DNA from: a virus
Virus record (IMG/VR): IMGVR_UViG_3300036770_007174
Coordinates: 28,336-92,335 of that record
Strand: one strand, 5' to 3'
DNA: 64,000 nucleotides
The translations under genes were made by a program, and so were the position numbers. Of the stretch, positions 4,974 through 64,000 are shown piece after piece; the first letter of the stretch is position 1, and every line of letters starts with the position of its first letter. Under the pieces are notes generated by a model. It was not told where the DNA came from, made no database searches, and saw only the letters and a program-made list of their open reading frames with translations.

Positions 4974-4994
4974 AGACCACGGAGACGGACGCAG

Positions 4995-10535: not shown

Positions 10536-10565
10536 GGTCTAGCCTGGGAGCGCGCGGCAAACCTA

Positions 10566-12557
10566 ATGATCCACATTATCGGTGTCCGTGAAGGGCAGGA
10601 ATATGAGGCCGCCGTCCACCTTCGGAGGCTTCTCTTAAATCTCTGGCCGGATTTGGCGCAAAGCAAAGATGATGTTGTCAAGATATTTGTTGGCTTTAAG
10701 ATGTACGGTTACAAAGTCGAGGATCTCGACCTTGTTGTCATTGGCAGATTTTCTGCTCCCCGACCATTTGACATCGAGTTTCAGTTCTACCCGAGAGATG
10801 GCGATCCGTTTGTGCCAAGGAGCGCCAGCATAGCGAATTTTGCGCTCGTCATTGAGGTTAAGTCGCATGACGCGAGCGGCGTCCGCTTTGAAAACAAAGT
10901 CGCATCAGTGCGCTACATCCGGAATGGACGCGCAGTCTGGGAGTGCGTGACTGAAAAAAATCGCATGCAGATGTTCGAATTTAAGAAGTACCTTGGACGG
11001 CAGGGACTTGGAAAAGTTCATGTTCAGGATTTGGTCCTTTTCACGGGGCTGCGTGAGAGCGACCTCCCGAAGCGTCCGCACAATTGCGTAGCAGGGGACG
11101 CGAGCTTTGAGCGCGTTCTAAACGTGCTCGGGCAAATCTCGCGGCCAATCCGGCATGGTACTCAGGTAAACCTGATTTTCGGGTCCGACGACGCCTTTCA
11201 GGATCTGCTATGCTCGGATTTTCCGTTGTTTGATGAAATCGAGCCAACGTCGCTCGACCGGCGAAGGATGGACATGATCGCCCGCCGAGCGCTGCCAGAT
11301 GAGTGGCTCGACGATCTTGGGGAGCGCCAGATTGTCCTGAGAGGCCGCGGAGGCGTCGGGAAGACCGTCCTCCTCCTGCAGATGGCCTACCGCGCGTTCG
11401 AGTCCAGGCAAATGCGTTCATTGGTTTTGACATTCAACAAGGCTTTGGTCGCGGACCTGAGGCGCACCATGGCATTGCTCGGAGTACCACATAGTGCCGA
11501 GAAGGGCGGAATTGCTGTCGAAACCGCACACGCGTTCTTTGGGCGCTTGATGCGAGGTTTAGGTATCATTGAAAATTACGAGGGCTATCTCGAAGGCTAC
11601 ACCGCGCTCAAAGCGACACTTCTCACGTATCTCCAGACGGAAGCGATTAGCCGCGACGACATAAACAGTCTGCTTTCGGGTCAGTCGCTGGATTTCGACT
11701 GGGATCTGGTTCTTGTTGATGAGGGCCAGGATTGGCCGGCCGACGAGATTGAAATCTTGCGCACCATTTACGGCGAATCAAAGATGGTCGTATCGGATGG
11801 TGTTGATCAGTTTGTCCGCGAATCTGTCGCAGACTGGTCGCGGGGGCTGGCTAAGTCAGCCACGAAATCGCGGCGGCTGACACGCTGCATGCGCATGAAG
11901 GCTAACCTAGCGACCTTTGTTGGCGAGATGGCGGAGGAACTCCAACTTTCAGGTTGGGACCTAGAGCCGAACGCTATGGCAGTTGGCGGCAAAGTGGTTG
12001 TGTTCGAAGGCGACCTGGCATCCAGCCCGATGGTCATTCAGCGGCTCACGGCGGAAGCAGTCGCTTTAGGCAACCACCCCGTCGATATGCTTGCGTGCGT
12101 GCCGCCATCGATGGTCGATCCGACGGCGGATGGTCAGGTCTGCAGGCCCGCCGCCTTGTTTGCGGCCGCTGGCGGTTGCGTTTGGGACGGCACGTCGCGA
12201 GATGTGCGCGAGCATTTTCCGACAGAGCGCCAGCAATTGCGCTTTGTCCAATACGACTCCTGTCGTGGGCTGGAAGGATGGGCGACTATCAACTACGCAC
12301 TTGACGAGCTATGGGAATATAAGCGCGGTCAATGGCTTGCTGGTGACTACCGAACTGACGGGCTCGACAAATCTCCAGACGAATTGGCAGAACTTCATGC
12401 TTCGAGATGGCTGATGATCCCGCTGACTCGCGCCATCGATACATTGGTGGTGAACGTTGGCACGAATGAGAGCGCCGTGAAAACGATGCTTCGGAGAGTT
12501 GCGAAGAGGCGGGGTGACTTCATCGAATGGATTACCAGTGGCGAGCACTTGGCGTGA
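10566..12557 (+). CDS. NERD-like PD-(D/E)XK nuclease fused to SF1 (UvrD-like) helicase
   Basis: N-terminal DLDLVV...IEVK nuclease motif, Walker A GRGGVGKT, Walker B VDEGQD, C-terminal SCRGLE and LTRA motifs. Confidence 0.8.
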   Translation: MIHIIGVREGQEYEAAVHLRRLLLNLWPDLAQSKDDVVKIFVGFKMYGYKVEDLDLVVIGRFSAPRPFDIEFQFYPRDGDPFVPRSASIANFALVIEVKSHDASGVRFENKVASVRYIRNGRAVWECVTEKNRMQMFEFKKYLGRQGLGKVHVQDLVLFTGLRESDLPKRPHNCVAGDASFERVLNVLGQISRPIRHGTQVNLIFGSDDAFQDLLCSDFPLFDEIEPTSLDRRRMDMIARRALPDEWLDDLGERQIVLRGRGGVGKTVLLLQMAYRAFESRQMRSLVLTFNKALVADLRRTMALLGVPHSAEKGGIAVETAHAFFGRLMRGLGIIENYEGYLEGYTALKATLLTYLQTEAISRDDINSLLSGQSLDFDWDLVLVDEGQDWPADEIEILRTIYGESKMVVSDGVDQFVRESVADWSRGLAKSATKSRRLTRCMRMKANLATFVGEMAEELQLSGWDLEPNAMAVGGKVVVFEGDLASSPMVIQRLTAEAVALGNHPVDMLACVPPSMVDPTADGQVCRPAALFAAAGGCVWDGTSRDVREHFPTERQQLRFVQYDSCRGLEGWATINYALDELWEYKRGQWLAGDYRTDGLDKSPDELAELHASRWLMIPLTRAIDTLVVNVGTNESAVKTMLRRVAKRRGDFIEWITSGEHLA

Positions 12558-12859
12558 AGGGATCAGGCTAGGGTCACCTCAGCTTATCTATGTCGTCTTG
12601 AAGACTGGTTCAGAATGTCTGCGCGAGGGTCGCGGTGGAGCTTCCGTCCTTGCCACGAGAAGGGCTCGGCTGACGCTGGTGACATCAGCTAACGCGACAG
12701 CGATCACGGGGCGAAAGAGAACCGCGGAAACGTCCCGTGCGGTGTTCTCGACGGTCTCTCGGCTGTACGCGGATCGTTGATGGGACCGGGGTGTCAGGAC
12801 CAAAGCAGAGATCGCTTGGTATGCGATCGGAGCGCATAGCGTCCTTCGCGTAAAGCGGC

Positions 12860-13090
12860 AACCCAGAGAATGTTGGTCCCCGGCTTCGACCGCCGCTCCA
12901 ATGACCACCACCCCACCTTTCTCTCCAGGCGGATGGGCCACGTAGAACCCCAAGAAATTTGGGGGTTTTTCGCGTGGGGTTGGGGGTGGCTTGGGCGCCA
13001 GAACCCCGCTTTCGCTCTCCGGAGGGGCATTTCTCTCCGAAGCTTGGGGGTAGGCGGATTTACACCCAAGGTTTCAACACGCTGAAATCA
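12860..13090. repeat. Cluster of short direct repeats and palindromes, candidate mobile-element end/att region
   Basis: TTTCTCTCC at 12918 and 13030, TTTCGCTCTCC at 13010; imperfect inverted repeat AACCCCAA..TTGGGGGTT at ~12946-12967; TTTCA-N6-TGAAA at 13072-13087. Confidence 0.4.
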
Positions 13091-13228
13091 GGACATTTTT
13101 TTCAAGGAGCACCTTGGGAGTTGCGTGTGTCGACTGGCCGGGTGGATGCGCTGCAAGACGAATGATTCAGTCCCAAGCGGCATAGCCTTCTTCTGGGTCA
13201 CGTCCCCGCTAATCGTGTAGAATATGCC

Positions 13229-15526
13229 ATGTCGAATCGATTCGCAGCGGCCGCGCGACCCATGCTCGCGCTAAACGCGATCCGCCTCAGTCATCCGGAA
13301 ACGCCGCTTCCTGCGGCGTTGGTTCCGTTCGAGCGGACGCAGTTCCATGCCTATCTGGACCGGCCTGCCCAGGACGTGTTCGCAACTCGGCACGGCGAGA
13401 CGGACATGGCGATAGTACCTCTCAAGGGCGCAGCGGAACTACCGGGCCCATTGAGTAAGTTGCCTGTTGCCGAAAACATAAGGCTATTCGCAACTCTAGC
13501 CCGCGAATCCGTATTCCGGCATCTTCTGACTTTGCCTAGCAGCTACCGTGTAGTCAGCCGCCGACCACCGATTGTTGAGTCCGCAAAGCAGGATAACGTC
13601 ATTCCGCCATCAATTGGGCTGCCTGCCTGGCTCAAGAAGCGCACGGCTTTGGTCTTCGAGACACGGATAGTTAAGCATCCCAGCGAAGCGCCCTATGTCG
13701 TATTGACTTGCAGCAACCGGCTTCGAAACGTGATCGAAGCAGATTGCGGTCAGTTGCACAGCATCGGCGTCCCTCTGGTAGGAAACTACGTCTCTGCCTG
13801 GACCGACGATCCTGATCCGAAAGTGGCCAAACGTCTCCGTCTTGCTGGGCGAGTGATCGCCAACGATGGCGCTGTTCTAAAACTTGCGGATTTTGGTAGT
13901 GGCCCTGAAGAACTGGCCATCAATTCGGCCTTCCTTGAACCGACTCGCGCCAATTTCAATGCGGTCGTGCTAGCATTAATGCAGGGCCGGGCAGAGCGAG
14001 TGCTTAAGGAAGTTCAGGAGGCCGAAGGCGGGCTCCGGGCAGGTAAGGCGAGTCTCGACGCTATTCAGTCCGCGTTACGATATTTTGGCCGGGCCGGCCT
14101 CCATATCGCACATGAGGTGCCACTGCGGTTCGAGAGCTTACTCGACCAGAGCGACCGGGCCGTGTTTCCGCCTATTGAAATGTTCCCGAGGCCGACTTTT
14201 GCATTTGATCCGAGCGGTTCTCGCAACGACAATTGGCCGCAGAGGCAACTCGATGCGACCGGGCCATACGATAGAGCAACCTTCGAGCGGAAGCGACCCA
14301 GGATAGCCGTCATCTGCGAGTCGCGCCGGCGCGGCAATGTATCGGAGACAATCGCTCACTTCCTTGAAGGTCTCCCCGACGTCAAATCGCACAAGGGGCT
14401 CGTTCCTCATGGGACAGGGCTACTTGGTCGTTTCAGACTCCAGAAGCCTCAAGTTGAGTTCTTCGAGGCCAACGACGACACCGCCTCTGCCTATGCTGAA
14501 GCAGCGCGAAACGCTCTGTCGGTGGCAGCCAATCGAAATCAACCTTGGGATCTCGCAATAATACAAGTGCAAAGAGCTTGGAAGGACAGGCTCCCAAACA
14601 ATAGTCCCTACTGGTCAGCGAAGGCCACTTTCCTGCGGCGGGACGTGCCCGTACAAGCTATGTCATCCGAAATGCTTCAATTAAGCGATTTTGAATATGC
14701 ATGCGCGCTGGCAAACGCCAGTTTAGCCACTTACGCGAAACTTGGCGGCACTCCTTGGCTGTTGAAGGCCCGGCCCTCGACGGATCACGAGCTGATATTT
14801 GGCCTTGGGTCTCATACTCGCAAGGAAGGCAGGCGGGGTGCCGGGGAACGGATCGTGGGGATCACCACGGTGTTCTCCAGCCAAGGCACCTATCTACTTG
14901 ACGCTCGAACCGCAGCGGTGCCGTTCGAACGCTACCCAGAGGCCTTGCGCGATACGCTGGTCACGGCGGTCGAGCGTGTGCGCAAAGAAGAGGCGTGGCG
15001 CGCTGGCGATACGGTACGCTTGGTGTTCCACGCATTTACCCAGCTCCGCCAAGAAACCGCCGACGCAGTAGTGGCCGCCGTGGCGAGCATGGGCCTTGCT
15101 GGCGTGAAGTTTGCTTTTCTCCATGTGGTCGAAGACCATCCATTCACGGCTTTCGATCATTCCTCGCCGACCGGGAGAGGTGCCTATGGTCCCGAGCGAG
15201 GTCAGGCAATTGAGCTGAACGAACATGAATGGCTACTCGCCCTCACAGGCCGGGATCAGATCAAGGCAGCATTCCAGGGCATCCCCGATCCCGTGCTGCT
15301 ACGCTTGCACGAAAAATCTACATTCCGTGATATGAGAACCTTGACACGACAGGTATCTGACTTCGCCTGTCATTCTTGGCGGACCTACGATCGTGTCCGA
15401 CTTCCTATCACACTTCTCTACGCCGATGAGATTGCAAAGCAATTGGCCGGCCTTGAGCGAACACCAGGGTGGGATCCAGATGCTGCGGTGGTTGGTCCGG
15501 TGATGCGCAGACCTTGGTTCTTGTGA
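13229..15526 (+). CDS. ago: Long-B prokaryotic Argonaute (RsAgo-like), catalytically inactive PIWI
   Basis: MID motif YWSAK...VPVQ...YAKLGGTPW; PIWI segments ELIFGLG, VGITTVF, GDTVRLVFHA, DHPF, STF, SWR, PITLLY, C-terminal WFL, closely matching Rhodobacter sphaeroides Ago as I recall it. Two Asp positions of the DEDX tetrad are replaced. Confidence 0.93.
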   Translation: MSNRFAAAARPMLALNAIRLSHPETPLPAALVPFERTQFHAYLDRPAQDVFATRHGETDMAIVPLKGAAELPGPLSKLPVAENIRLFATLARESVFRHLLTLPSSYRVVSRRPPIVESAKQDNVIPPSIGLPAWLKKRTALVFETRIVKHPSEAPYVVLTCSNRLRNVIEADCGQLHSIGVPLVGNYVSAWTDDPDPKVAKRLRLAGRVIANDGAVLKLADFGSGPEELAINSAFLEPTRANFNAVVLALMQGRAERVLKEVQEAEGGLRAGKASLDAIQSALRYFGRAGLHIAHEVPLRFESLLDQSDRAVFPPIEMFPRPTFAFDPSGSRNDNWPQRQLDATGPYDRATFERKRPRIAVICESRRRGNVSETIAHFLEGLPDVKSHKGLVPHGTGLLGRFRLQKPQVEFFEANDDTASAYAEAARNALSVAANRNQPWDLAIIQVQRAWKDRLPNNSPYWSAKATFLRRDVPVQAMSSEMLQLSDFEYACALANASLATYAKLGGTPWLLKARPSTDHELIFGLGSHTRKEGRRGAGERIVGITTVFSSQGTYLLDARTAAVPFERYPEALRDTLVTAVERVRKEEAWRAGDTVRLVFHAFTQLRQETADAVVAAVASMGLAGVKFAFLHVVEDHPFTAFDHSSPTGRGAYGPERGQAIELNEHEWLLALTGRDQIKAAFQGIPDPVLLRLHEKSTFRDMRTLTRQVSDFACHSWRTYDRVRLPITLLYADEIAKQLAGLERTPGWDPDAAVVGPVMRRPWFL

Positions 15527-16728
15527 CCTGCGGTCCCACCATTCCCCAAATTAGGGCTGGTTTAGTTGCAGCAGCTGAACCGACCTCTTCAACAGCCGTC
15601 CACGTCCAAGCTCTTAGGGCATGGCTCCTAGACGACTATGAGCGATTGGCAAAGCTGTCGGCGGAGGCAGCCACCAATTTTAATGCGGGTGCCGGGCGAT
15701 CTGTCCGGCATGTCGCGACCCTTGGCTATATGGCCGCGACCGGGCGACAATTTGTCCAGCTTCAACCTGTCCTGGCTGAAGGCCTCGCATGGTTGGGAGA
15801 GCGCACATGGTTTCGGCCAAATCAAGCGCATACCTTGGAAGCAGACGGTGTTGCTGCACTCGGTGTGGCACTCGGTATCCGCGACCGCCACTCGAGCTCC
15901 CGAGCAGACTGGCTGCAGAGTCTTGTTGTAAGGAGCGCTAGGTCGCCCGACCTTTCAGTTCTTGACCGAGCACTATTTATCGCTGCGGCGCACGTGATTG
16001 GTGCGGATGGGCGCCAAGACAGCGCTATGATGCTCCCAGAGGCTCGGTTGGCGCTCTCGCGGCTCGATCTCGGTACTATCGATGATACCTGCTACATGGA
16101 GGCTTGGCGCCGGATCCTACACTTCGACGCAGGAGAGCAGATGGTGCCAGAAGCGGTGTTACTGCTTAAGGCATTCGACTCGCTGATGGAGCGGACCTTA
16201 CCGACCCGCTTGGGGCGCCTTGACCCGCGAGACGTACTGCATGTGCTAGAAGGAGTGGGGCGTTCATTTAGACGGTGGAGCTGGGAGACTGTCCCTCGGA
16301 CCCGAAGATCTGCAGCCGCACGTTGGGAGATCGAAAACGAGTACCACGTTCAGAACGTATTGTGGGCGGTGCTGGCACCCCTGTTCCCAGATTTGAACGA
16401 CGAAGAAACGTTAGCTCCAATAGGTCAGAAGAGTCCGCGGGTCGATCTCACTATTCCTAGTCTTGGAACTGTTGTGGAGGTGAAGTTCATGCGAATTACG
16501 ACCTCTTTTCAAGATGTAATTGAGGAGATCGCTGCTGACGCAAGTCTCTACGCGACAGACCCCCGTTGGACGTCGATTATTCCATTCGTGTGGGATGACT
16601 CAAGGCGTATGGAGGAGCACCAGAAGCTAGTTGCGGGGCTCAAGCAGCTTCCGGGCGTCATCGGTGCTGTCGTTGTCTCACGCCCAGGAAAGATGGGCCG
16701 ACCAAATGAAGATTCGTCAAGAGATTGA
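15523..16728 (+). CDS. Argonaute-associated PD-(D/E)XK nuclease (C-terminal DpnII/MboI-like REase domain)
   Basis: GTG at 15523 overlaps the Ago stop (GTGA). C-terminal ENEYHVQ...DEE...RVD...VVEVK...EEIAAD..LY motif set; N-terminal ~240 aa of unknown, helical-looking sequence. Confidence 0.8.
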   Translation: MTCGPTIPQIRAGLVAAAEPTSSTAVHVQALRAWLLDDYERLAKLSAEAATNFNAGAGRSVRHVATLGYMAATGRQFVQLQPVLAEGLAWLGERTWFRPNQAHTLEADGVAALGVALGIRDRHSSSRADWLQSLVVRSARSPDLSVLDRALFIAAAHVIGADGRQDSAMMLPEARLALSRLDLGTIDDTCYMEAWRRILHFDAGEQMVPEAVLLLKAFDSLMERTLPTRLGRLDPRDVLHVLEGVGRSFRRWSWETVPRTRRSAAARWEIENEYHVQNVLWAVLAPLFPDLNDEETLAPIGQKSPRVDLTIPSLGTVVEVKFMRITTSFQDVIEEIAADASLYATDPRWTSIIPFVWDDSRRMEEHQKLVAGLKQLPGVIGAVVVSRPGKMGRPNEDSSRD

Positions 16729-16987
16729 CGACAACGCCGCTCTTTCATGGCGTCGCTTCCCCGGTGATGGCGTAACCCCTCTGCCAGTGGTCGACATGCC
16801 CGCGCCCTTAGCGGGGCGCCGGAGATGGTTATCGGATCAGTCGTTTACGCCCGGTTTCCAGGACACGCACGGGCTCCGCCGCAATCCGCCTGAACTCACT
16901 GATTTCGACCAAGAATGCGGTTTCCCTGAGCGTTGCTTCGCGGACTCTCCCCGCGTAGTGTGCGAAGCAGGTGACGGAGAGATTCGC

Positions 16988-18856
16988 ATGGCGCGGGCGA
17001 GAAGGATCGCGGAGTCGGGTGGTAACGCCGCCCAACTGACGCGGACCGAGCGAGCCGAGGCGCTGATAGCATCTGTCCGGGCGGATGGTATCGACATGGC
17101 CCGTGCCATCGCGCGAGAAGTGGCCGAGGGGTGGTTTGACACCAAGGCCGAGTCCGTTATCGACATAGTCGCATTCGACTTGACTCTTCCTGTCCTTTCT
17201 ACTGCGACCGCTGAACAGGCGCGCGCCCTAGGGCGTGACCTGGCCGATTTGGCGATTGGTGAGGCCATTAGCGAGATCGGACGCATCTACACGCGCTCAC
17301 TGCCTGCCGACCATCGATCTGCGCATGGTGTCTATTACACTCCGCCCACCCTGGTTCAGCGGCTTCTGGACCGCGCCGAGGGCGCTGGTGTGGATTGGCT
17401 TACCGCCAGGGTAATCTCACCATCATGCGGCGCAGGTGCCTTCCTAGTCGAGGACGCTGCCCGGATGGTTGCGGCGATGGACGGGGCCGAACCGGCGATC
17501 GTCGTCGCGTCTGTCGGGGCACGCCTCCGCGGATGGGATATCGACCCCTTCGCTGTGTGGTTGTCTCAGGTCGCCGTCGAGGCTGTGGTGTTGCCGCAGG
17601 TCGTCGCGTCTGGCAAGCGATTGCCTCCCATCACCGAGCGCCGCGATAGCCTCATGGATGACTGGGGCGGGCATGTCGGTGCCTACGACCTGGTCAACGA
17701 CAACCCCGCCTTCGGTAAGGTCACCAAGACGGACGCGATCACCGAACGTTTCGCCCGAAGTCAGAAGGGCCACATTAACCTGTACGGGTTGTTCATAGAC
17801 GTAGCGGTCCACCTGGCTAAACCTAGAGGCGGCGTCATCGCCTATTTGACGCCGACCTCCTATCTCGGTGGCAACTACTTCGCCCAGCTTCGTTCACTGC
17901 TGGTGTCGGAGGCTCGCCCAGCTAGCATTGACCTCGTCGAGAGTCGCCAGGAAGTGTTCCCGGATGTTCTCCAGGAGGTGGCCCTCTCCGTATTCGTGCG
18001 TGGCCGCCGGTCGCTGACGGCCTCATGCGCTGTGGTGCATGTCGAGCCAACCGGCCTCCGGATCCAAGATGTCGGACCGCTGGTCGTACCAAAGGACTTG
18101 CGGGGCCCTTGGATAATTGCCCGAGACCCTACCAGTGTGCCGTTGGTAGCGGCGATGCAGAAAATGGACGCCCGCCTCCTTGACTGGGGTTGGACAGTAA
18201 AGACTGGGCCATTGGTGCCCCACAAGAACGCAGAGCGCATGCAAGACGCTCCTGGACCGGGACGTGTGCCAGTTATCTGGGCCGAAAGCATCTCGGCGAT
18301 CGGGGGGCGCTTCTCCATCGTCTGCGGTCGTCCGGGCCGAAAAGCATGGTATGCCGCAAGGCAGGGGAAAGACAGCAACGTCAGCACTGGCGCCGCCCTC
18401 TTGCTCCAGCGGACGACGGCGAAGGAGCAGCATCGCAGGCTGATCGGCGCCGTCATGTCGCAGGCGGCGGTCGATGCGGTTGGCGGGCGGGTTGCAGTGG
18501 AGAACCACGTCAATATGCTGTTGCCTACGGGGCCGAAGCCGCAGGTGTCGCTGGCCAGGCTTGCCGCATTTTTTGCTTCGGAAGCAGCCGACCGGGCGTT
18601 CCGATGCATCAGCGGATCCGTCGCCGTCAGCGCAACCGAGTTGGAAGCGTTGCCTCTGCCTAAAGTAGGTGATCTTATAAAGGCGCTCGCCGCCCCAGAG
18701 TCGGAGGCAGCTCTGCTCCGCCTTTACGGGATCCAGCATGGCGAAACTTGCGAAGCCACTGACGAAGAAGGCCACGGTCACACCGAAGAAGGCCCTGCTC
18801 CAGGAAGGGCCGCTGCCGCCGCTTCTGCCGGTCGACGAAATCAGGACGCGGCTTGA
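16988..18856 (+). CDS. N6-adenine DNA methyltransferase, gamma class (M.PstI/M.BsuBI/Eco57I-like)
   Basis: GVYYTPP, PSCGAGAFL, GWDIDP, NPAF (motif IV variant), NLYGLF, LLQRTTAKEQ, ENHVN; GGAGA RBS before ATG 16988. Confidence 0.85.
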   Translation: MARARRIAESGGNAAQLTRTERAEALIASVRADGIDMARAIAREVAEGWFDTKAESVIDIVAFDLTLPVLSTATAEQARALGRDLADLAIGEAISEIGRIYTRSLPADHRSAHGVYYTPPTLVQRLLDRAEGAGVDWLTARVISPSCGAGAFLVEDAARMVAAMDGAEPAIVVASVGARLRGWDIDPFAVWLSQVAVEAVVLPQVVASGKRLPPITERRDSLMDDWGGHVGAYDLVNDNPAFGKVTKTDAITERFARSQKGHINLYGLFIDVAVHLAKPRGGVIAYLTPTSYLGGNYFAQLRSLLVSEARPASIDLVESRQEVFPDVLQEVALSVFVRGRRSLTASCAVVHVEPTGLRIQDVGPLVVPKDLRGPWIIARDPTSVPLVAAMQKMDARLLDWGWTVKTGPLVPHKNAERMQDAPGPGRVPVIWAESISAIGGRFSIVCGRPGRKAWYAARQGKDSNVSTGAALLLQRTTAKEQHRRLIGAVMSQAAVDAVGGRVAVENHVNMLLPTGPKPQVSLARLAAFFASEAADRAFRCISGSVAVSATELEALPLPKVGDLIKALAAPESEAALLRLYGIQHGETCEATDEEGHGHTEEGPAPGRAAAAASAGRRNQDAA

Positions 18857-19874
18857 GGCGATCTTTCCTCCCGGCATCCAATCGCGCGAGTTTGTAATCA
18901 GGGAGAACGCGGCCAAGACGGTCCTCGCGTCGCTTGTCGTGGGCGCCATCGAGGGGCGTGGCCGGTGGCTCGCGCCTCGCCATATCTATCGGCTTCGTCA
19001 GTCGGTCGTTGAGGCAACTGATCCAGCGGATAGGCTGGCCTACTATCGCCGGGTGCCGAGGGCGTCAGAGGAGGCGGCCTACGCTGACAATAGTCGCGAG
19101 GGGGCCAGGGACGAGGCCATACGTCGAGGCCTGATACCGCTAAATGCGATGGTGCTAAGGACCGATGTCAGCGTGACATCGATGGAGGGACGCTATGCGC
19201 TGACGGAGGACTTCACGCGCCTGTTCGACCCAGCGTTGAAGGACGCAGCCTTCGATGCTGCCGCAAGAGCATGGCAGGGCAAATACCTGTCGGGCGCCGC
19301 GCTCGCCCGGGCAGCGGTCCTCCAGGGAATTGACGCCGGGGGTGTAGAGATCGCTCTGCCACAGGGTGGTGCCGTGGTGCTTCCTGCCGGTGAAAGCCCC
19401 GTCATGACGAAGCACGTGGTGGAGCAGTTCGCGAAACGTTTCTTGGTCAACCCGGTTGTAGTTTGGATCAGCGACAGCCGCGAGAAGGTATACCAGCACG
19501 ACACACTCGTGAAGGCGATGCAGGTGCAAATGGACGCCGCACGGCTGCTACCCGATGTGGTCCTCGTCGACCTTGCTCCCCCGGGCAGACAAGGACGTCT
19601 CCTTGTCGTCTTTGTGGAGGTTGTCTTTTCAGATGGTCCGGTGGACGAAGGAAGGCGCGAGCAGCTCTGGAAACTCCTGGAGGCAAGCCCGAAGGGCTAC
19701 AAGCCCGAAGATGCGGCTTATGTTACAGTCTACACGGACAGGACCAGTTCCCGCCCCGCCGCCAGGGCACCGCGTGAACTGGCCTGGAATTCATTTGCAT
19801 GGTTCGTTACAGAACCGGACTGCATCGTTCAGTACAGGGGTGGGCCGCCGGTCATGCTGGCATCGTTGCTTTGA
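18738..19874 (+). CDS. BsuBI/PstI-family type II restriction endonuclease
   Basis: YADNSRE..RDE N-terminal motif; LPDVVLVD...FVEVV.SDGPV catalytic region; LAWNSFAWF; overlaps the 3' end of the MTase. Confidence 0.85.
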   Translation: MAKLAKPLTKKATVTPKKALLQEGPLPPLLPVDEIRTRLEAIFPPGIQSREFVIRENAAKTVLASLVVGAIEGRGRWLAPRHIYRLRQSVVEATDPADRLAYYRRVPRASEEAAYADNSREGARDEAIRRGLIPLNAMVLRTDVSVTSMEGRYALTEDFTRLFDPALKDAAFDAAARAWQGKYLSGAALARAAVLQGIDAGGVEIALPQGGAVVLPAGESPVMTKHVVEQFAKRFLVNPVVVWISDSREKVYQHDTLVKAMQVQMDAARLLPDVVLVDLAPPGRQGRLLVVFVEVVFSDGPVDEGRREQLWKLLEASPKGYKPEDAAYVTVYTDRTSSRPAARAPRELAWNSFAWFVTEPDCIVQYRGGPPVMLASLL

Positions 19875-20042: not shown

Positions 20043-20426
20043 CTACTCGCCAGATACTGGTTTGCTCCACTGCACTCCCACCCCCTTCATCAGCGCTGGC
20101 AACGTCACCCCCTCCTCCTGCCGCCCCTCCAGGATCGCCTCCACGATCGCAGGCGCAAGCAGCGTCAGCCGCAACACGTCGCCGACGTATGTCCGGTCCA
20201 GCTTTTCGGCCCGCGCGATATCGGAGACGGAGGCGTAGGTGCCGTCGTCCAGAAGCCGCTTCCACCGGAAGGCCCGCCCCAGCGCCTTCAGCAGCGACGG
20301 ATCGGCGTTGGTCGCAAACTGCCGCGGCGCGGTGGTCAGCACGGACCCTTCCGGCGACACCACCACCTTCCGCCCGCCCCGCTTCCGGATCGCCAGCGGC
20401 ACCCGCACTGTCACCGTGTCGGCCAT
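20043..20426 (-). CDS. Recombinase-associated HTH protein
   Basis: RKRGGRK and ALGRAFRW...RLTLLAPAIVEAIL.GRQ pattern typical of the ORF downstream of DUF2924-linked recombinases; overlaps the recombinase stop. Confidence 0.75.
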   Translation of the reverse strand: MADTVTVRVPLAIRKRGGRKVVVSPEGSVLTTAPRQFATNADPSLLKALGRAFRWKRLLDDGTYASVSDIARAEKLDRTYVGDVLRLTLLAPAIVEAILEGRQEEGVTLPALMKGVGVQWSKPVSGE

Positions 20427-21760
20427 CAGGCTGCCTCGCGCATTGCGTCGCTACCCCGCAGGTCCCGCACCAGGCTCGACAGCCCGTCGACCCGCAGCTT
20501 GATGTCCGCGCCGGTCGGGCCAATGGTCACCCGCTCCACCAGCAGCTGCACCAGCCGTGCCTGCTCGGCCGGGAACAGCTCATCCCACATCGGCTCTAGC
20601 TGCTCCAGCGCCTCGCGGACCTCGGCCTCAGTCACGTCTGGCGCCTCCTCGCGGCAGGCTTTCCAGGTGCCAACGATCACCTCCGGCTGCCGCACCAGAG
20701 CCCGGACCTGGGCAAGCACCACCTGCTCGATCTCGGCTGCGGCAATGCGACGTACGATGTCCGGGTTGGTGGTGTTCTGATCCTTCAGCACCGCCTGCGC
20801 CACGTAGTAGCGGTACTGCCTGCCGCCCTTGCGCGTGTGCGTCGGCGACAGGGCACGACCATCCAGCCCGAAGATCAGGCCCTTCAGCAGCGCCGGCGAT
20901 TGCGCCCGGGCCTGGTTGGCCCTGACTCGCGGGCTGACCTGCAGCACGGCGTGCGCCCGATCCCAGAGGTCCCGAGACACAATGGCCTCGTGCTCGCCAG
21001 CGTGAATCCTCCCCTTGTGCGGCGCCTCGCCCAGGTAGGTCCGGTTGGCGAGTAGCCGGTAGAGGTAACCCTTGTCGATCGGCATCCCGGTCTTCGACAG
21101 GACGCCCTGCTGCCGCAGTTCCTGGGCCAGCTTTGTGGCGGACCTAAGCACGACGAACCGCTCGAAGATCGCCCGCACCTGCCGGGCCTCGCTCTCGACC
21201 ACGATAAGCTTGCGGGCCTCGACCCGATAGCCGAGCGGCACCTTCCCGCCCATCCACATGCCGCGGGCGCGGGACGCGGCGAACTTGTCCCTGATTCTCT
21301 CGCCAATCAATTCTCTTTCGAACTGAGCAAAGCTGAGCAGGATGTTCAGCGTCAGTCGGCCCATCGAGGTCGTTGTGTTAAAGGATTGAGTGACGCTCAC
21401 AAACGTGACGTTGTGCGCCTCCATGGTCTCGACGAGCTTCGCGAAATCCGTCAGCGAGCGGCTGAGCCGATCGATCTTGTGAACCACAATGACATCGATC
21501 CGCCCTTGCTCGATATCGGCCAGTAGCCGCTTCAGCGCCGGACGCTCCAGGGTGCCGCCCGAGAAGCCTCCGTCATCGTAGTAGTCCGGCACCTCGATCC
21601 AGCCTTCCTGGCGCTGGCTGGCGATGTACGCAGCGCAGGCATCGCGCTGGGCGTCCAGCGTGTTGAACTCCTTCTCCAGCCCCTCGTCGGTGCTCTTGCG
21701 GGTGTAGATGGCGCAGCGGATCTTGCGGATCTGCGCGGTGGCCGCGGATTTCTTGCTCAT
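20426..21760 (-). CDS. Large serine recombinase (resolvase + recombinase domains)
   Basis: CAIYTRKS catalytic Ser motif, DRLSRS, TTSMGRLTLNILLSFAQFERE, PLGY; ATG at 21760. Confidence 0.93.
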   Translation of the reverse strand: MSKKSAATAQIRKIRCAIYTRKSTDEGLEKEFNTLDAQRDACAAYIASQRQEGWIEVPDYYDDGGFSGGTLERPALKRLLADIEQGRIDVIVVHKIDRLSRSLTDFAKLVETMEAHNVTFVSVTQSFNTTTSMGRLTLNILLSFAQFERELIGERIRDKFAASRARGMWMGGKVPLGYRVEARKLIVVESEARQVRAIFERFVVLRSATKLAQELRQQGVLSKTGMPIDKGYLYRLLANRTYLGEAPHKGRIHAGEHEAIVSRDLWDRAHAVLQVSPRVRANQARAQSPALLKGLIFGLDGRALSPTHTRKGGRQYRYYVAQAVLKDQNTTNPDIVRRIAAAEIEQVVLAQVRALVRQPEVIVGTWKACREEAPDVTEAEVREALEQLEPMWDELFPAEQARLVQLLVERVTIGPTGADIKLRVDGLSSLVRDLRGSDAMREAA

Positions 21761-22227
21761 GCCAGCCCCCGTTGGTTCTTGAGGCCGAAGAAGGTGAAGC
21801 CGTTCCACCGGGTGCCGGTGATGGCGCGGGCGACGGCCGACAGGGACTGGTACGGCCGCCCCTCCCATCCATAGCCGTTGGCGAGCACGGTCACTGTTTG
21901 CTCCACCCCTTTCCACTCGCGGATGAGGCGGGTGCCAGCGATCGGCTTATCCTGGTGGCGGATGCGGCGGATGATGGCGTTGCCACCGTCCAGCTGCTCG
22001 CCGATGGCCTCGAGCTTCGCCACCGTCTCGGGCTTGAGGCCGCCGTATGCAAGCTCCTGTATGCGGTAAGATAGCCGGCTCTGGATATACGTCCGGCTGA
22101 AGGGCGGCGGCTCCTTGCCGAACAGCTCACGCCATTGCTGCTTCAGCTGGGCGATGGGCATGGCGTGCAGCGCGGCCAGCCGCGCCAGGACCGTGTCCTT
22201 GGGGATGGAAGTGATCAACGTGGTCAT
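21757..22227 (-). CDS. DUF2924 domain protein
   Basis: YRIQELAYGGL, GTRLIREWKG, SLSAVARAITGTRWNGFTFFGL; directly upstream of the recombinase. Confidence 0.9.
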   Translation of the reverse strand: MTTLITSIPKDTVLARLAALHAMPIAQLKQQWRELFGKEPPPFSRTYIQSRLSYRIQELAYGGLKPETVAKLEAIGEQLDGGNAIIRRIRHQDKPIAGTRLIREWKGVEQTVTVLANGYGWEGRPYQSLSAVARAITGTRWNGFTFFGLKNQRGLA

Positions 22228-22526: not shown

Positions 22527-23303
22527 TTACGACCCGATCTGCCGTCCCAGCCAGATCACGCGCCCAACCACGGTGAGGTCCTCCGGACGTATCCCGTGCT
22601 GCGCCTCGTATGCCTTGTTGTCCGACAGCACGACCAAATGTTTGCTCGCGAGATCGACCTGCAGTCGCTTCACCTGCAATCCACCATCGGTGCGAATGAC
22701 GTAGATGCCATCCTTCCGCTGGGGCCGCTTCTGCCCGAAGTCGACCAGTACCGTGTCCCCCTGGCGCAGGGTTGGCTCCATCGAATCGCCGTCGACGGCG
22801 ATCACGGCCAAGTCCTCGAGTGGTGCTGCGGTCACCGAGCGCACCCACTCTTCGCGAAAGGCGATGCGGTAGATCACCGTCTCGTTGTCAATTTCGCGGC
22901 CAGGGCCGGCCGAAGCGCGTGTGTCGTAGACTGGCAAGAGCGCCCAGGAGTCCCCTCCCATGCTGACGATCTCAGCGGGGAGGTTGCCAGCAGACGGTGA
23001 TCGTGGTGCCCGCGGCTTGCGGCTTGTCCGCTGATCCAGAAGGGCGGAGGCCTGCTCAGCGGTTGTGACCGCGCCTTGCAGTGCCGGCGCATCCTTGCCG
23101 AACAGCAGCGCCTGCCAGGTGATCCCCAATGCGGCGGCCAACTCGCGTGCTGCCCGCGGCGTCAGGGGGCGCCGCCCGCTTTCATAGGCTCGATAAGTGG
23201 CCTCCGGAACGCCTGACATGCGCGCCAGTTCGGCGCCACTGCCAATGCCATGCTCCTCCCGGAGCCGCTTGAGACGGTCTGCTGTCGATTCCATGCGTTG
23301 CAT
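22527..23303 (-). CDS. Phage CI-like repressor (XRE HTH + S24 peptidase)
   Basis: N-terminal HTH (ELARMSGV..TYRAYESG), ASAG cleavage site, GDSMEP catalytic Ser, VKRL Lys, VVGRV. Confidence 0.92.
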   Translation of the reverse strand: MQRMESTADRLKRLREEHGIGSGAELARMSGVPEATYRAYESGRRPLTPRAARELAAALGITWQALLFGKDAPALQGAVTTAEQASALLDQRTSRKPRAPRSPSAGNLPAEIVSMGGDSWALLPVYDTRASAGPGREIDNETVIYRIAFREEWVRSVTAAPLEDLAVIAVDGDSMEPTLRQGDTVLVDFGQKRPQRKDGIYVIRTDGGLQVKRLQVDLASKHLVVLSDNKAYEAQHGIRPEDLTVVGRVIWLGRQIGS

Positions 23304-25021: not shown

Positions 25022-25806
25022 TGGCCATTTCCCTTGCATCCCTCCGGCGCGGTGGTGAAGCACAGCCGCCCCGGCTCCTGGTCTATGGCGTCGCCGGTGT
25101 CGGCAAGACCAAGCTCGCGGCGGCCGCACCCAACCCGGTGTTCCTGCAGACCGAGGATGGGCTCGGTGGCATCGACGCCGCGACCTTCGGCGTGCTGCGC
25201 AGCTACGGCGACGTCCAGGACGCGCTGGACGTGTTGTATGGCCAGTCGCACGATTTCCAGACGGTGGTGCTCGACAGCCTCGACTGGCTGGAGCCGATGA
25301 TCTGGCAGCACACCTGCGCGATCCAGCCCACCCCGTGGGCGTCGATCGAGCAGCCGGGCTTCGGCAAGGGCTACACCGCCGCGGTCGATACCTGGCGCGG
25401 CTTCCTCGACGGGCTGAACCTGCTGCGCAATGAGCGTGGCATGGGCGTGATCCTGATCGCCCATGCCGACATCAAGCGCTTCGACAGCCCTGAGACTGAA
25501 CCCTACGACCGGTACCAGCCCAAGCTGCACGCCCGCGCCGCGGCGCTGGTGCAGGAGCACGTCGATGCCGTGCTGTTCGCCAACTACCGGATCAGCACGC
25601 TCAAGTCCGACGCCGGCTTCGGCAAGAAGGTCGTGCGTGGCGTGAGCGGCGGCGACCGGCTGCTCCACACCACCGAGCGACCCGCATACCTCGCCAAGAA
25701 CCGCTTCGGCCTGCCCGACACATTGGCCCTCGACTGGCCGGCGCTCGCCGCGGGCATCCCCTTCTACACCGGAGAGACCGCGGCCGCCGCGGAGGAGGTC
25801 CACTGA
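25021..25806 (+). CDS. AAA_24 / Sak4-like phage ATPase (recombination)
   Basis: YGVAGVGKT, TEDG, LDSLDWLE, GFGKGY, LIAH, AKNR. Confidence 0.88.
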   Translation: MAISLASLRRGGEAQPPRLLVYGVAGVGKTKLAAAAPNPVFLQTEDGLGGIDAATFGVLRSYGDVQDALDVLYGQSHDFQTVVLDSLDWLEPMIWQHTCAIQPTPWASIEQPGFGKGYTAAVDTWRGFLDGLNLLRNERGMGVILIAHADIKRFDSPETEPYDRYQPKLHARAAALVQEHVDAVLFANYRISTLKSDAGFGKKVVRGVSGGDRLLHTTERPAYLAKNRFGLPDTLALDWPALAAGIPFYTGETAAAAEEVH

Positions 25807-25807
25807 C

Positions 25808-26347
25808 ATGGCCCAGCTCAACCAGCATTTCGACGCCAACACAGTTGAGCCAGCCGCGCCCTACGAGCTGCTCCCGCCCGGGCGATACGTCGCGCAGATT
25901 GTGCAGAGCGAGATGCGCCCGACCAAGGCCGGCAACGGCCAGCTGCTCTGGCTCGAGCTCGATGTGCTCGAAGGCGCCCACCAGGGCCGCAAGATCTGGG
26001 ATCAGCTCAACCTGGTGAATCCGAACCAGCAGACGGTGGAGATCGCGCAGCGTGCGCTGTCTGCGATCTGCCATGCGGTGGGGCAGCTCCAGGTCAGCGA
26101 CAGCGAGCAGCTACACCTGCGGCCGCTCCAGGTGACGGTCGCGGTCGAGCCCGACAGCCGGGACAAGCATCTTCAGCCGCACGAGCAGCGCAAGCAGAAC
26201 AAGATCAAGGGCTATGCTCCGCTCGGTCCTGCGGCCGCCGCGCGTCCCCCTGTGCCGCAGTCGAGCGCGCCGCGCACGGCTCCTCCCCCGCCGCGTCCGG
26301 CGCCGGCAGCGGCAGCCACCACCCCGCCCTGGCGCCGTGCGGGCTGA
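25808..26347 (+). CDS. DUF669 protein (phage single-stranded DNA-binding-like)
   Basis: LPPGRY, GRKIWDQLNL, NKIKGY, Pro/Ala-rich tail ending PPW; follows Sak4. Confidence 0.85.
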   Translation: MAQLNQHFDANTVEPAAPYELLPPGRYVAQIVQSEMRPTKAGNGQLLWLELDVLEGAHQGRKIWDQLNLVNPNQQTVEIAQRALSAICHAVGQLQVSDSEQLHLRPLQVTVAVEPDSRDKHLQPHEQRKQNKIKGYAPLGPAAAARPPVPQSSAPRTAPPPPRPAPAAAATTPPWRRAG

Positions 26348-26349
26348 CC

Positions 26350-27279
26350 ATGGTCGCTCTGCCTCCTCCCCCCGAACTGACCGTCGCGGCGATCTATGCC
26401 GCGTACGAAGCCGACAGCGCCGATGGGTATCGCGCCCATCTCGGCGCGTCGGTGATCGGGGGCACCTGTGACCGGGCCATCTGGTATGGCTTCCGGTGGG
26501 CAGGCCGGGCGCGGCACACCGGCCGGCTGCTGCGGTTGTTCGAGACCGGGAATTTGGCGGAGGCGCGCTTCGTCGCCAATCTCCGCCGCATCGGTGTCAC
26601 CGTGCTCGACCTCGACCCGAGCACCGGACGGCAGTGGACGCTTCGCGACGCCACGGGCCACTTCGGTGGCAGCATGGACGCGGTGGCCATCGGCCTGCCG
26701 GAGGCGCCGAAGACCTGGCACGTCTGCGAGTTCAAGACGCATAGCGAGAAGTCGTTCCTCGCCCTGCAGAAGGACGGCGTCGCCGCCTCGAAGCCAGCAC
26801 ACTGGACGCAGATGCAGGTCTATATGCACCTCGCCGGCCTCGATCGGGCCTTCTATCTCGCGGTCAACAAGAATACCGACGAGCTCTACCAGGAGCGCGT
26901 GCGCGCCGACGGGGAGGCTGGCCTCCGCCTCCTGGCCAAGGCCGAGCGCATCATCCTGGCGGCGCGCCCACCGGCCCGCATCAGCGACGATCCCACCTGG
27001 TGGCAATGCCGGTTCTGCGACCACCATGCGCTCTGCCACGGCGATGCCATGCCGGAGCGCCATTGCCGCTCCTGCCTCCACAGCACACCGGTCGCAGACG
27101 GCCAGTGGCACTGTGCCCGGCACGCGTGCCTGCTGTCGCTGGACGACCAGCGCCGCGGTTGTGCCGCCCACCTGCTGATCCCCGACCTGGTCCCAGGCCT
27201 GCAGACCGATGTCGGTGAGGACTGGGTGAGCTATCGCATGTCGGACGGCGCGGAATGGCGCGACGGGGTGCCAGCATGA
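26350..27279 (+). CDS. Cas4/RecB-like PD-(D/E)XK exonuclease with Cys clusters
   Basis: HLGASVIG..CDR.IWY, GSMD, EFKT, QMQVYM, CRFCD...C, CRSC. Confidence 0.85.
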   Translation: MVALPPPPELTVAAIYAAYEADSADGYRAHLGASVIGGTCDRAIWYGFRWAGRARHTGRLLRLFETGNLAEARFVANLRRIGVTVLDLDPSTGRQWTLRDATGHFGGSMDAVAIGLPEAPKTWHVCEFKTHSEKSFLALQKDGVAASKPAHWTQMQVYMHLAGLDRAFYLAVNKNTDELYQERVRADGEAGLRLLAKAERIILAARPPARISDDPTWWQCRFCDHHALCHGDAMPERHCRSCLHSTPVADGQWHCARHACLLSLDDQRRGCAAHLLIPDLVPGLQTDVGEDWVSYRMSDGAEWRDGVPA

Positions 27280-63942: not shown

Positions 63943-64000
63943 TCATTCCTGATGGCGGCTGGTGGCCGGAAGCCGTGTCGCTCGATGAGCCACGTGGTGT

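What the first reader, a model, noticed from the sequence alone, without database searches (positions are those of the whole stretch)
13229..19874. Argonaute + nuclease + R-M cassette, possibly carried by a temperate phage
Seen: four co-oriented genes in two overlapping pairs (Ago/nuclease, MTase/REase) converging on the recombinase module, between it and the candidate element end. Known: inactive long-B pAgos act with co-encoded effectors, and DNA breaks can feed pAgo targeting. Inference: this is a phage-mobilised layered defence cassette in which R-M is the first line and Ago-nuclease the backup, possibly functionally coupled. Best candidate for an undescribed system in this window.
Basis: partly seen in the sequence, partly recalled or inferred. 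Interest (0 to 1): 0.8.

Follow-up and report, generated by a model that had tools for sequence, protein, structure and literature searches.

The report
Phage-borne Argonaute-nuclease plus restriction cassette
Two already-described bacterial immune systems, an inactive Argonaute with its partner DNase (BPAN) and a PstI-family restriction-modification pair, sit side by side in a variable "defence slot" next to the attachment site of a temperate phage; the pairing looks like stacking in a hotspot, not a new coupled system.

Summary
Four co-oriented genes form two overlapping pairs and converge on a serine integrase.

- **Genes 1-2** are a long-B pAgo plus bAgaN nuclease, the described BPAN system. 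Both match the solved EcAgo/EcbAgaN complex. The slicer tetrad is broken (G-E-F-D), the 5'-phosphate pocket is intact, and the nuclease D-EVK motif is intact.
- **Genes 3-4** are a BsuBI/PstI-family type II R-M pair. The methylase motif variants are common in its family.
- **"Undescribed coupled system" is not supported.**
  - bAgaN follows the pAgo in 72 of 80 genomes. A PstI-type methylase or nuclease lies nearby in 0 of 80.
  - DNA homology to the closest relatives covers only 13,228-16,700.
  - The R-M pair occurs alone in six viral contigs.
  - The two pairs differ in GC3.
- **"Carried by a temperate phage" is supported, more precisely than proposed.**
  - Window 12,868-13,090 is an intact attP-like site. 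It has a tRNA-Gly-like arm and a conserved 190-nt arm.
  - In a relative, that 190-nt arm abuts an intact tRNA-Gly.
  - In relatives, the slot between attP and the orf127/integrase module holds type I R-M, type III-like R-M plus BPAN, IetAS plus a LmuA-like gene, or a LmuA-like/PDC-M48B gene.

Verdict: a new instance of known systems in a phage defence hotspot. The scan had notes only on this same DNA, none on other DNA.

The parts
12868..13090 (+). attP-like site of the phage. The P arm (12868-12900) resembles the 3' end of tRNA-Gly and ends in GCTCCA (12895-12900). The P' arm (about 12901-13090) contains a terminator-like hairpin at 12948-12964.
   Evidence: 91% identical over 228 nt to G002, at the same place relative to the integrase. 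The core motif lies exactly 139 nt after GCTCCA in 7 loci. In L083 the P' arm abuts an intact tRNA-Gly(GCC), and in G001 a 3' half tRNA. Hairpin.
13229..15526 (+). Long-B prokaryotic Argonaute, catalytically inactive.
   Evidence: PADLOC pAgo_II 1e-222. EcAgo (PDB 23wq) 3e-107 over the full length; RsAgo 1e-67. Tetrad G527-E567-F603-D733 and MID Y461-K465-Q476-K504, mapped.
15469..16728 (+). bAgaN, the long-B pAgo-associated PD-(D/E)XK nuclease (helical N domain plus DpnII/MboI-like REase domain). The start is GTG 15469 or GTG 15523.
   Evidence: PADLOC Aga_Helical-REase 4e-119; Pfam DpnII-MboI 2.6e-48. EcbAgaN 8.6e-43. D326/E337/V338/K339 equal the D-EVK motif. Directly downstream of the pAgo in 72 of 80 genomes.
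16729..16987 (.). Spacer between the two modules (junction DNA).
   Evidence: Nucleotide homology with the closest BPAN relatives ends at 16,696-16,700. No promoter or terminator signal above background.
16988..18856 (+). Type II N6-adenine DNA methyltransferase (gamma class, Eco57I/TaqI-like).
   Evidence: PADLOC MTase_II 1.6e-156; Pfam Eco57I. Matches M.TaqI. Motif I SPSCGAGAFL and motif IV NPAF are common variants in the family.
18738..19874 (+). BsuBI/PstI-family type II restriction endonuclease.
   Evidence: Pfam BsuBI_PstI_RE 1.3e-31 (positions 1-153 of 154) plus the N-terminal HTH domain 2.4e-18; PADLOC REase_II 2.6e-77. Follows the methylase homologue in 6 of 6 viral contigs.
20043..20426 (-). 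orf127, a conserved small phage gene directly downstream of the integrase. It marks the inner edge of the variable slot.
   Evidence: Present after the integrase in most of the 80 related loci. Nucleotide homology to all relatives stops at window 20,064-20,085.
20426..21916 (-). Large serine integrase of the prophage.
   Evidence: Pfam Resolvase, Recombinase and Zn_ribbon_recom. PHROG 95 integrase 1e-102. 80 relatives in IMG/VR.
22527..23303 (-). CI-like repressor (context: the lysogeny module of the same phage).
   Evidence: PHROG 4 transcriptional repressor 2.3e-47.

Best explanation
The stretch holds two independent, already-described defence modules. They are stacked in the attachment-site-proximal cargo slot of a temperate siphophage of a high-GC bacterium, probably an alphaproteobacterium.

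**Module 1 (13229-16728): a BPAN system.** By homology to EcBPAN, the slicer-dead long-B pAgo loads 5'-phosphorylated small RNAs. When it pairs with invader DNA, it recruits the bAgaN dimer and releases its autoinhibition. bAgaN then degrades DNA non-specifically, which aborts the infection.

**Module 2 (16988-19874): a BsuBI/PstI-family type II R-M pair.** The methylase marks self DNA and the endonuclease cuts unmodified incoming DNA.

**Arrangement.** The slot lies between the phage attP (12868-13090, which targets the 3' end of tRNA-Gly) and the orf127/serine-integrase module. Related phages carry other defence systems at the same place. The lysogen therefore gains a first-line and an abortive-infection defence against competing phages. 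I see no evidence that the two modules need each other.

**Shown:** gene identities, motif states, conserved pairing within each module, lack of conserved linkage between modules, slot variability, and att structure.

**Inferred:** guide and target chemistry, the abortive-infection outcome, methylase specificity, expression from the prophage, and packaging of the cargo.
For: **BPAN identity**
- PADLOC pAgo_II 1e-222 and Aga_Helical-REase 4e-119.
- Both proteins hit the two chains of PDB 23wq, EcAgo at 3e-107 and EcbAgaN at 8.6e-43.
- The tetrad positions EcAgo G492/E532/Q568/D700 map to G527/E567/F603/D733.
- The 5'-phosphate pocket Y426/K430/Q441/K469 maps to Y461/K465/Q476/K504. All four are invariant in 12 homologues.
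- The nuclease motif D298/E309/V310/K311 maps to D326/E337/V338/K339.
- Mechanism of EcBPAN: PMC10620215 and PMC13535254.

**Modularity**
- bAgaN is directly downstream of the pAgo in 72 of 80 genome loci. The PstI-type MTase or REase is present in 0 of 80.
- Homology with the closest relatives (up to 87% aa) is limited to window 13,228-16,700.
- The MTase-REase pair occurs alone in 6 viral contigs.
- GC3 is 0.60/0.56 for the Ago pair, 0.69/0.70 for the R-M pair and 0.75-0.90 for the phage backbone.

**Phage slot**
- The integrase, repressor, replication, terminase and tail genes are phage genes.
- attP structure and the tRNA-Gly junctions.
- Slot contents in relatives: type III-like R-M plus BPAN (G001), a LmuA-like/PDC-M48B gene (G002), type I R-M plus PD-Lambda-2_B (L099) and IetAS plus a LmuA-like gene (L114).
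- A type I methylase gene cluster lies within 10 kb of orf127 in 12 loci, five of them with the specificity-subunit cluster; the ResIII/Mod pair is present in 5-6 loci.
- G002 independently links an A-like tail module, cargo, attP, cargo and the integrase on one contig.
Against: - No experiment shows expression, excision or packaging.
- The contig carries two related structural modules. It is therefore either a tandem double lysogen or an assembly path through two co-occurring phage variants, and the exact genome that owns the cassette is not settled.
- With the cargo on both sides of attP, a single genome would be about 58-66 kb. CheckV-based size expectations for relatives are inconsistent, so packaging capacity is uncertain.
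- Both phage-borne BPAN copies found (this one and G001) sit next to an R-M system. That is compatible with chance in an R-M-rich slot, but it does not exclude synergy.
- Methylase specificity is unknown, and CTGCAG is not depleted in the contig (39 observed, 48 expected).
Confidence: 0.75

Rival explanations
1. One reading: the four genes form one functionally coupled, undescribed layered system. R-M cleavage products feed or trigger the Ago-nuclease pair.
For: The genes are adjacent and co-oriented. The second phage-borne BPAN found (G001, pAgo 77% identical) also lies directly next to an R-M-like pair, ResIII helicase plus a type III methylase. DNA ends are known to feed guide acquisition in some active long-A pAgos (own knowledge).
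Against: - 0 of 80 pAgo homologues have a PstI-type R-M within 10 kb, while 72 of 80 keep bAgaN.
- The R-M partner differs in type and orientation between the two phage cases.
- Homology with relatives ends at the Ago-module borders.
- The two pairs have separate GC3 signatures.
- A 260-nt spacer separates the pairs.
- EcBPAN works without any R-M and uses transcriptome-derived 5'-P RNA guides.
- R-M is the commonest occupant of this slot anyway.
Confidence: 0.07
2. The cassette is not phage cargo. It belongs to a chromosomal or other integrative defence island that happens to lie between two prophages, and the conserved 190-nt segment is island or host DNA rather than a phage att arm.
For: - The low-GC block is 23 kb (contig 25,000-48,200) and compositionally foreign to the phage.
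- In G001 a P4-type tyrosine integrase lies just beyond the tRNA remnant, so tRNA-Gly is also used by other elements.
- Many IMG/VR provirus records end shortly after the integrase.
- A backbone of 43 kb is already a complete phage size.
Against: - The same tail-cargo-segment-cargo-integrase linkage occurs in an independent metagenome contig with different cargo.
- The segment keeps a fixed orientation and position relative to the integrase in 6 integrase-bearing loci. It is conserved across contigs from different sources, including a Brevundimonas MAG.
- In L093 the first cargo gene overlaps the conserved phage gene orf127.
- Tandem prophages at one attB leave no host DNA between them (inference).
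Confidence: 0.17
3. About the state of the DNA only. The 92-kb record is not a tandem double lysogen. It is an assembler's path through two co-occurring, free or replicating phage variants that share a near-identical early region. The intact attP then reflects circular or concatemeric phage DNA.
For: - The contig starts at the position homologous to window about 39,025. One turn of the circle would then be about 67 kb, followed by a second structural module that is 86% identical.
- No host genes are recognisable on the contig.
- IMG/VR classes it as linear viral.
- attP is intact rather than attL or attR.
Against: Tandem lysogens also give an intact attP at the junction. The sequence alone cannot decide between the two. 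Either way the cassette is inside a phage genome.
Confidence: 0.4

Closest known systems
EcBPAN (E. coli long-B pAgo EcAgo plus nuclease EcbAgaN; Song et al. 2023, PMC10620215; Liu et al. 2026, PMC13535254; PDB 23wq)
   Same: - Two-gene operon with overlapping reading frames.
- Full-length alignment of both proteins.
- Broken DEDX tetrad at the same two positions.
- Intact Y-K-Q-K 5'-phosphate pocket and C-terminal ...WFL.
- Intact D-EVK nuclease motif.
   Different: - The match to both EcBPAN chains is distant (EcAgo 3e-107, EcbAgaN 8.6e-43; no percent identity was computed).
- Third tetrad position is F603 instead of Q568.
- The nuclease N-terminal domain aligns only from residue 148.
- Here the pair sits next to attP of a temperate phage, not in a chromosomal context studied on plasmids.
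RsAgo (Rhodobacter sphaeroides long-B pAgo, PDB 5AWH/6D8P)
   Same: Same long-B clade, with RNA-guide/DNA-target architecture (E 1e-67 over residues 164-750). Also from an alphaproteobacterium.
   Different: RsAgo was studied mostly without its effector. The protein here is closer to EcAgo than to RsAgo.
PstI / BsuBI type II restriction-modification systems
   Same: The REase has both Pfam domains of the family. An adjacent gamma-class N6-adenine methylase precedes it in methylase-then-nuclease order, a pairing kept in 6 of 6 viral contigs.
   Different: The 119-nt gene overlap. Motif IV reads NPAF rather than NPPF; this is a frequent family variant (54 of 120). Recognition sequence is unknown, and CTGCAG is not avoided in the phage.
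Prophage and satellite defence hotspots (P2 and P4 of E. coli; Rousset et al. 2022, PMC9122126)
   Same: A fixed position bounded by conserved phage genes near the integrase. It carries a different defence system in each relative, in either orientation, with R-M frequent among them.
   Different: - A different phage lineage: serine integrase, tRNA-Gly attB, terminase related to Rhodobacter RcKemmy-like phages.
- The slot abuts attP, and a second cargo region lies on the other side of attP (Druantia here, Zorya in G002).
- It often holds two systems.
- A pAgo system is not among the hotspot cargos quoted in the passages of that paper that I read.

Membership tests
BPAN (long-B pAgo plus bAgaN) | Full-length pAgo (N-PAZ-MID-PIWI) of the long-B clade | tested here: met
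   PADLOC pAgo_II matches residues 14-765 against profile positions 2-724 of 724, E 1e-222. EcAgo aligns over 13-765 against 3-731.
BPAN (long-B pAgo plus bAgaN) | DEDX slicer tetrad disrupted | tested here: met
   G527-E567-F603-D733 against EcAgo G492-E532-Q568-D700. F603 and G527 are invariant in 12 homologues.
BPAN (long-B pAgo plus bAgaN) | MID pocket for a 5'-phosphate guide (Y/X-K-Q-K) plus the C-terminal carboxylate | tested here: met
   Y461, K465, Q476, K504 and the terminal L765 are all invariant.
BPAN (long-B pAgo plus bAgaN) | Downstream bAgaN with a PD-(D/E)XK D-EVK active site | tested here: met
   D326/E337/V338/K339. Pfam DpnII-MboI 2.6e-48.
BPAN (long-B pAgo plus bAgaN) | Conserved operonic pairing of the two genes | tested here: met
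   72 of 80 genome loci have the nuclease directly downstream, usually overlapping.
BPAN (long-B pAgo plus bAgaN) | RNA-guided DNA recognition activates collateral DNase and causes abortive infection | not testable with these tools
   Needs biochemistry and phage assays. Inferred from EcBPAN.
Type II R-M, BsuBI/PstI family | REase with the BsuBI_PstI_RE_N and BsuBI_PstI_RE domains | tested here: met
   2.4e-18 and 1.3e-31, with the catalytic domain covered over positions 1-153 of 154.
Type II R-M, BsuBI/PstI family | Cognate N6-adenine methylase with SAM motif I and catalytic motif IV | tested here: met
   SPSCGAGAFL and NPAF. S144 occurs in 24 of 120 homologues, A149 in 21 of 120 and NPAF in 54 of 120, so these are family variants and not decay.
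Type II R-M, BsuBI/PstI family | Recognition of CTGCAG | not testable with these tools
   Only an indirect check was possible: CTGCAG is not depleted (39 observed, 48 expected). Methylome data are needed.
Prophage defence hotspot | Same position, bounded by conserved phage features, with different cargo in relatives | tested here: met
   The orf127-to-attP slot measures 3.1-9.7 kb in six loci, each with different content.
Prophage defence hotspot | Cargo enriched in defence systems | tested here: met
   Type I, II and III R-M, BPAN, IetAS, LmuA-like and PDC-M48B genes, and PD-Lambda-2_B. Zorya and Druantia lie on the other side of attP.
Prophage defence hotspot | Cargo excised and packaged with the phage | not testable with these tools
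   The only support is in silico: attP is intact and flanked by cargo on contigs classed as viral.
Hypothetical coupled Ago-R-M system | Conserved co-occurrence of this pAgo clade with BsuBI/PstI R-M | tested here: not met
   0 of 80 genome loci and 0 of 4 close metagenome relatives. Neighbours are heterogeneous.

The most novel reading that the evidence does not exclude
The att-proximal slot of this phage family is selected to hold complementary pairs: an R-M first line plus an abortive back-up. In that reading, the phage-borne BPAN copies are functionally helped by the neighbouring R-M. For example, restriction and RecBCD processing could expose single-stranded invader DNA that the RNA-guided pAgo senses, so protection would be more than multiplicative.
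Probability: 0.07. Interest if true: 0.6.

Novelty: new member of a known kind. Interest (0 to 1): 0.3.

Why it matters
- The finding removes a candidate "undescribed system". Both halves are known families with intact motifs.
- It gives a clean natural example of a long-B pAgo/bAgaN system carried as cargo beside the attP of a temperate phage.
- It defines a new defence hotspot in a serine-integrase phage family that targets tRNA-Gly. In relatives the slot holds type I, II and III R-M, IetAS and LmuA-like genes. Druantia or Zorya lie across attP.
- Such slots are useful hunting grounds for new systems. The unannotated genes in the same slot of L083 and G002 are candidates.
- It raises a testable question: how does a prophage that carries an abortive, DNA-sensing Argonaute avoid triggering it during its own induction?

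Tried and rejected
1. Searching IMG/VR for close pAgo relatives with the single protein found nothing. The genome-contig scan with an alignment worked instead.
The metagenome scan returned only four short contigs.
3. The genome search 'relatives' is not available for a virus record.
4. A single-sequence REase scan of IMG/VR found nothing. The methylase alignment found six pairs.
5. Rfam found no RNA family in the att region. ARAGORN found no tRNA there either. The tRNA likeness only became clear from the alignment with L083.
6. L121, L123 and L159 looked like the same flank with different cargo. They turned out to be deletion derivatives of one arrangement, so I did not use them as evidence.
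7. CheckV completeness values imply inconsistent genome sizes (57-104 kb), so I rejected them as a packaging argument.
8. PstI-site avoidance is absent.
9. Another first-stage note suggested the methylase core motifs are degenerate. I rejected this: both variants are common among homologues.
10. I did not run structure prediction. The sequence matches to a solved complex were already decisive.
Full report
**1. What is there**

Between window 13,229 and 19,874 lie four + strand genes.

- The first (765 aa) is a prokaryotic Argonaute. PADLOC pAgo_II scores 1e-222 over the whole length. The Pfam Piwi match is weak, which is usual for this clade.
- The second (up to 419 aa) is a helical-domain plus DpnII/MboI-type nuclease (PADLOC Aga_Helical-REase 4e-119; Pfam 2.6e-48).
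- The third is a gamma-class N6-adenine methylase (PADLOC MTase_II 1.6e-156; Pfam Eco57I).
- The fourth is a BsuBI/PstI-family endonuclease with both family domains.

The pAgo stop overlaps possible nuclease starts: GTG 15469 gives 58 nt and GTG 15523 gives the 4-nt GTGA. The methylase most likely starts at ATG 16988, behind a GGAGAG. The endonuclease has only ATG 18738 as a start, 119 nt inside the methylase. The block converges on a 127-aa ORF and a large serine integrase on the - strand.

**2. The Ago-nuclease pair is the published BPAN system**

Both proteins hit the two chains of one solved complex, PDB 23wq: EcAgo at 3e-107 over the full length, and EcbAgaN at 8.6e-43. RsAgo is the next hit at 1e-67.

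The 2026 structural paper on EcBPAN (PMC13535254) gives the relevant residues. I mapped them through the alignments.

| Feature | EcBPAN residues | Here | Source calls |
|---|---|---|---|
| Slicer tetrad | G492-E532-Q568-D700 | G527-E567-F603-D733 (two of four acidic residues lost) | 18, 53 |
| 5'-phosphate pocket | Y426/K430/Q441/K469 | Y461/K465/Q476/K504, invariant in 12 homologues | 17, 72 |
| Nuclease D-EVK motif | D298/E309/V310/K311 | D326/E337/V338/K339 | 19, 56 |

The published mechanism is as follows. 5'-P RNA guides are taken from the transcriptome. Recognition of invader DNA recruits the autoinhibited nuclease dimer into an 8:8 complex. Non-specific DNA degradation and abortive infection follow. 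Here this mechanism is inferred by homology, not shown.

**3. The R-M pair is an ordinary type II system**

The methylase aligns with M.TaqI. Another first-stage note on this DNA suggested that both methylase core motifs are altered. I aligned 120 homologues. Motif I SPSCGAGAFL and motif IV NPAF are natural variants: S144 occurs in 24 of 120, A149 in 21 of 120, and NPAF in 54 of 120 against NPPF in 66 of 120. There is no sign of decay.

In six IMG/VR contigs a methylase homologue (40-46% identity) is followed by an endonuclease homologue (38-42%), with no Argonaute nearby. CTGCAG is not avoided in the contig (39 observed, 48 expected). If the enzyme keeps PstI specificity, the phage relies on methylation.

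**4. The two pairs are not linked elsewhere**

- I collected 80 genome loci encoding pAgo homologues (31-81% identity) with 10-kb flanks. bAgaN lies directly downstream in 72 of 80. A homologue of this methylase or endonuclease is present in 0 of 80.
- Representatives of the flanking-ORF clusters from 14 loci with close relatives (at least 57% identity) matched a changing mix. It includes BREX, Gabija, a type IIG enzyme, Shango, a dCTPase and TniQ.
- In four close metagenome relatives and two genome relatives, nucleotide homology to the window runs from about 13,228 to about 16,700 where the contig allows. That is exactly the two-gene Ago module.
- GC3 is 0.60/0.56 for the Ago pair, 0.69/0.70 for the R-M pair and 0.75-0.90 for the phage backbone. 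This points to separate acquisitions.

**5. Phage carriage**

- *Prophage next to the cassette.* To the right of the cassette lies a complete temperate-phage layout. It has a serine integrase, a CI-like repressor, a Cas4-type exonuclease, a helicase, a primase and a ParB-methylase. A large terminase, a tape-measure protein and tail genes follow.
- *The record as a whole.* The record is a 92-kb IMG/VR viral contig. Its first 25 kb, upstream of the window, is a second structural module. It is 86% identical in DNA to the first one from the terminase through the head genes.
- *Edge of the variable region.* Eighty related integrase loci share the integrase and, in most, the small ORF after it. Homology to the window stops at 20,064-20,085, and what follows varies.
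- *An independent contig with the same order.* One relative (G002, 47.5 kb) has tape measure (92-94%), tail and a 605-aa protein (87%). Then come 11 kb of cargo, a 228-nt segment 91% identical to window 12,861-13,088, and 4.6 kb of cargo. orf127 and the integrase (87%) complete the order.
- *The conserved segment is an att arm.* It begins with a 33-nt sequence that resembles the 3' end of tRNA-Gly and ends in GCTCCA (12,895-12,900). A conserved core follows exactly 139 nt later in seven loci. In L083 (integrase 90%) the same arm is joined to an intact tRNA-Gly(GCC). In G001 it is joined to the 3' half of that tRNA.
- *Interpretation.* I read the tRNA-joined form as attL. I read the form in the window, G002, L099, L114 and L003 as an intact attP. 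An intact attP is expected at a tandem-prophage junction or on free phage DNA.
- *Terminator.* The arm also carries a terminator-like hairpin at 12,948-12,964. After integration it would follow the tRNA gene.

The cassette therefore lies inside the phage genome, between attP and orf127/integrase.

**6. The slot is a defence hotspot**

| Locus | Slot length (kb) | Content between orf127 and the att arm |
|---|---|---|
| This window | 7.0 | BPAN plus type II R-M |
| G001 | 9.7 | ResIII helicase, type III methylase, then BPAN (pAgo 77%, opposite orientation) |
| G002 | 4.6 | A LmuA-like/PDC-M48B gene, plus ORFs with no PADLOC match |
| L099 | 8.6 | Type I R-M plus PD-Lambda-2_B |
| L114 | 7.4 | IetAS plus a LmuA-like gene |
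| L083 | 3.1 | Unannotated |

A type I methylase gene cluster lies within 10 kb downstream of orf127 in 12 loci (with the specificity-subunit cluster in five of them), and the ResIII/Mod pair in 5-6 loci. On the other side of attP the window has a MORC-like ATPase, Druantia genes and a 663-aa P-loop protein. G002 has type I Zorya there. This is the pattern described for P2/P4 hotspots (PMC9122126), here in a different phage lineage.

**7. What remains open**

- Whether the 92-kb record is a tandem double lysogen or an assembly path through two co-occurring variants cannot be decided from sequence.
- With cargo on both sides of attP, a genome would be about 58-66 kb. CheckV-derived size expectations are inconsistent, so packaging is unproven.
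- Both phage-borne BPAN copies neighbour an R-M system. Given how common R-M is in this slot, I treat that as chance, but synergy has not been tested.
- I put the coupled-system reading at about 7% and the 'not phage cargo' reading at about 17%.

**8. Verdict**

It is a new member of known kinds. Interest is modest, mainly for the hotspot and the phage-borne long-B Argonaute. Earlier notes of this scan concern the same DNA only; nothing similar was recorded on other DNA.

Noticed in passing
contig 25,428-29,075 and window 1-12,557: The cargo on the other side of attP holds several parts. There is a GHKL/MORC-like ATPase (PADLOC MzaB 6e-17), DruA, and a 996-aa ORF (922-3912) with no DruB or DruC hit. 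DruD, DruE and a 663-aa P-loop/helicase-like protein (10566-12557) with only weak hits follow. This is a Druantia type I variant with non-canonical middle genes.
   Followed up: partly
contig 1-25,004 versus window 39,110-62,824: The record has two related structural modules. They are 86% identical in DNA from terminase through the head genes and diverge in the tails. Both are followed by a conserved segment of about 290-490 nt and then by low-GC DNA. The record is either a tandem lysogen or an assembly through two phage variants.
   Followed up: partly
window 37041-38393 (-): An MFS transporter gene (Pfam MFS_1 3e-30) lies inside the prophage, between the ParB-methylase region and the DUF3489/small-terminase genes. 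It may be another moron.
   Followed up: no
window 33008-34015 (+): A sharp low-GC patch (0.49) in the early region holds a 335-aa ORF with no Pfam or PHROG match.
   Followed up: no
window 62,824-64,000: After the last tail gene of the second phage, GC drops to 0.63. A 212-aa ORF on the - strand runs off the contig end and has no Pfam or PADLOC match. This is probably the start of that phage's own cargo region.
   Followed up: partly
whole contig: CTCGAG is strongly under-represented (22 observed against 58.7 expected from a maximal-order Markov estimate), and GTCGAC as well (39 against 62). This may reflect avoidance of host or phage restriction systems with those sites.
   Followed up: no
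window 58935-59023 (-): ARAGORN calls an 89-nt tRNA-Ile inside a tail gene. It is probably a false positive.
   Followed up: no
L165 (G002) 5344-16248 and 3056-4861: The closest related phage contig carries type I Zorya (ZorA, ZorC and ZorD hits) on one side of attP. On the other side it has a LmuA-like/PDC-M48B gene plus a 244-aa partner. An 808-aa gene next to ZorA has no PADLOC hit.
   Followed up: partly
L169 3-365 and L019 4304-4897: Two further pAgo-bAgaN loci (76% and 40% pAgo identity) have a fragment of the same serine-integrase family within a few kb, in other arrangements. This Argonaute clade seems to travel repeatedly with this integrase family.
   Followed up: no
L164 (G001) 2942-4228: A P4-type tyrosine integrase lies just beyond the half tRNA-Gly that borders the phage arm. 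tRNA-Gly is therefore shared as an integration site by at least two kinds of element.
   Followed up: no
L165 1989-2392; L095 and L123: Partial duplications of orf127 occur downstream of the integrase in some relatives. This suggests that recombination at this gene helps to exchange cargo.
   Followed up: no
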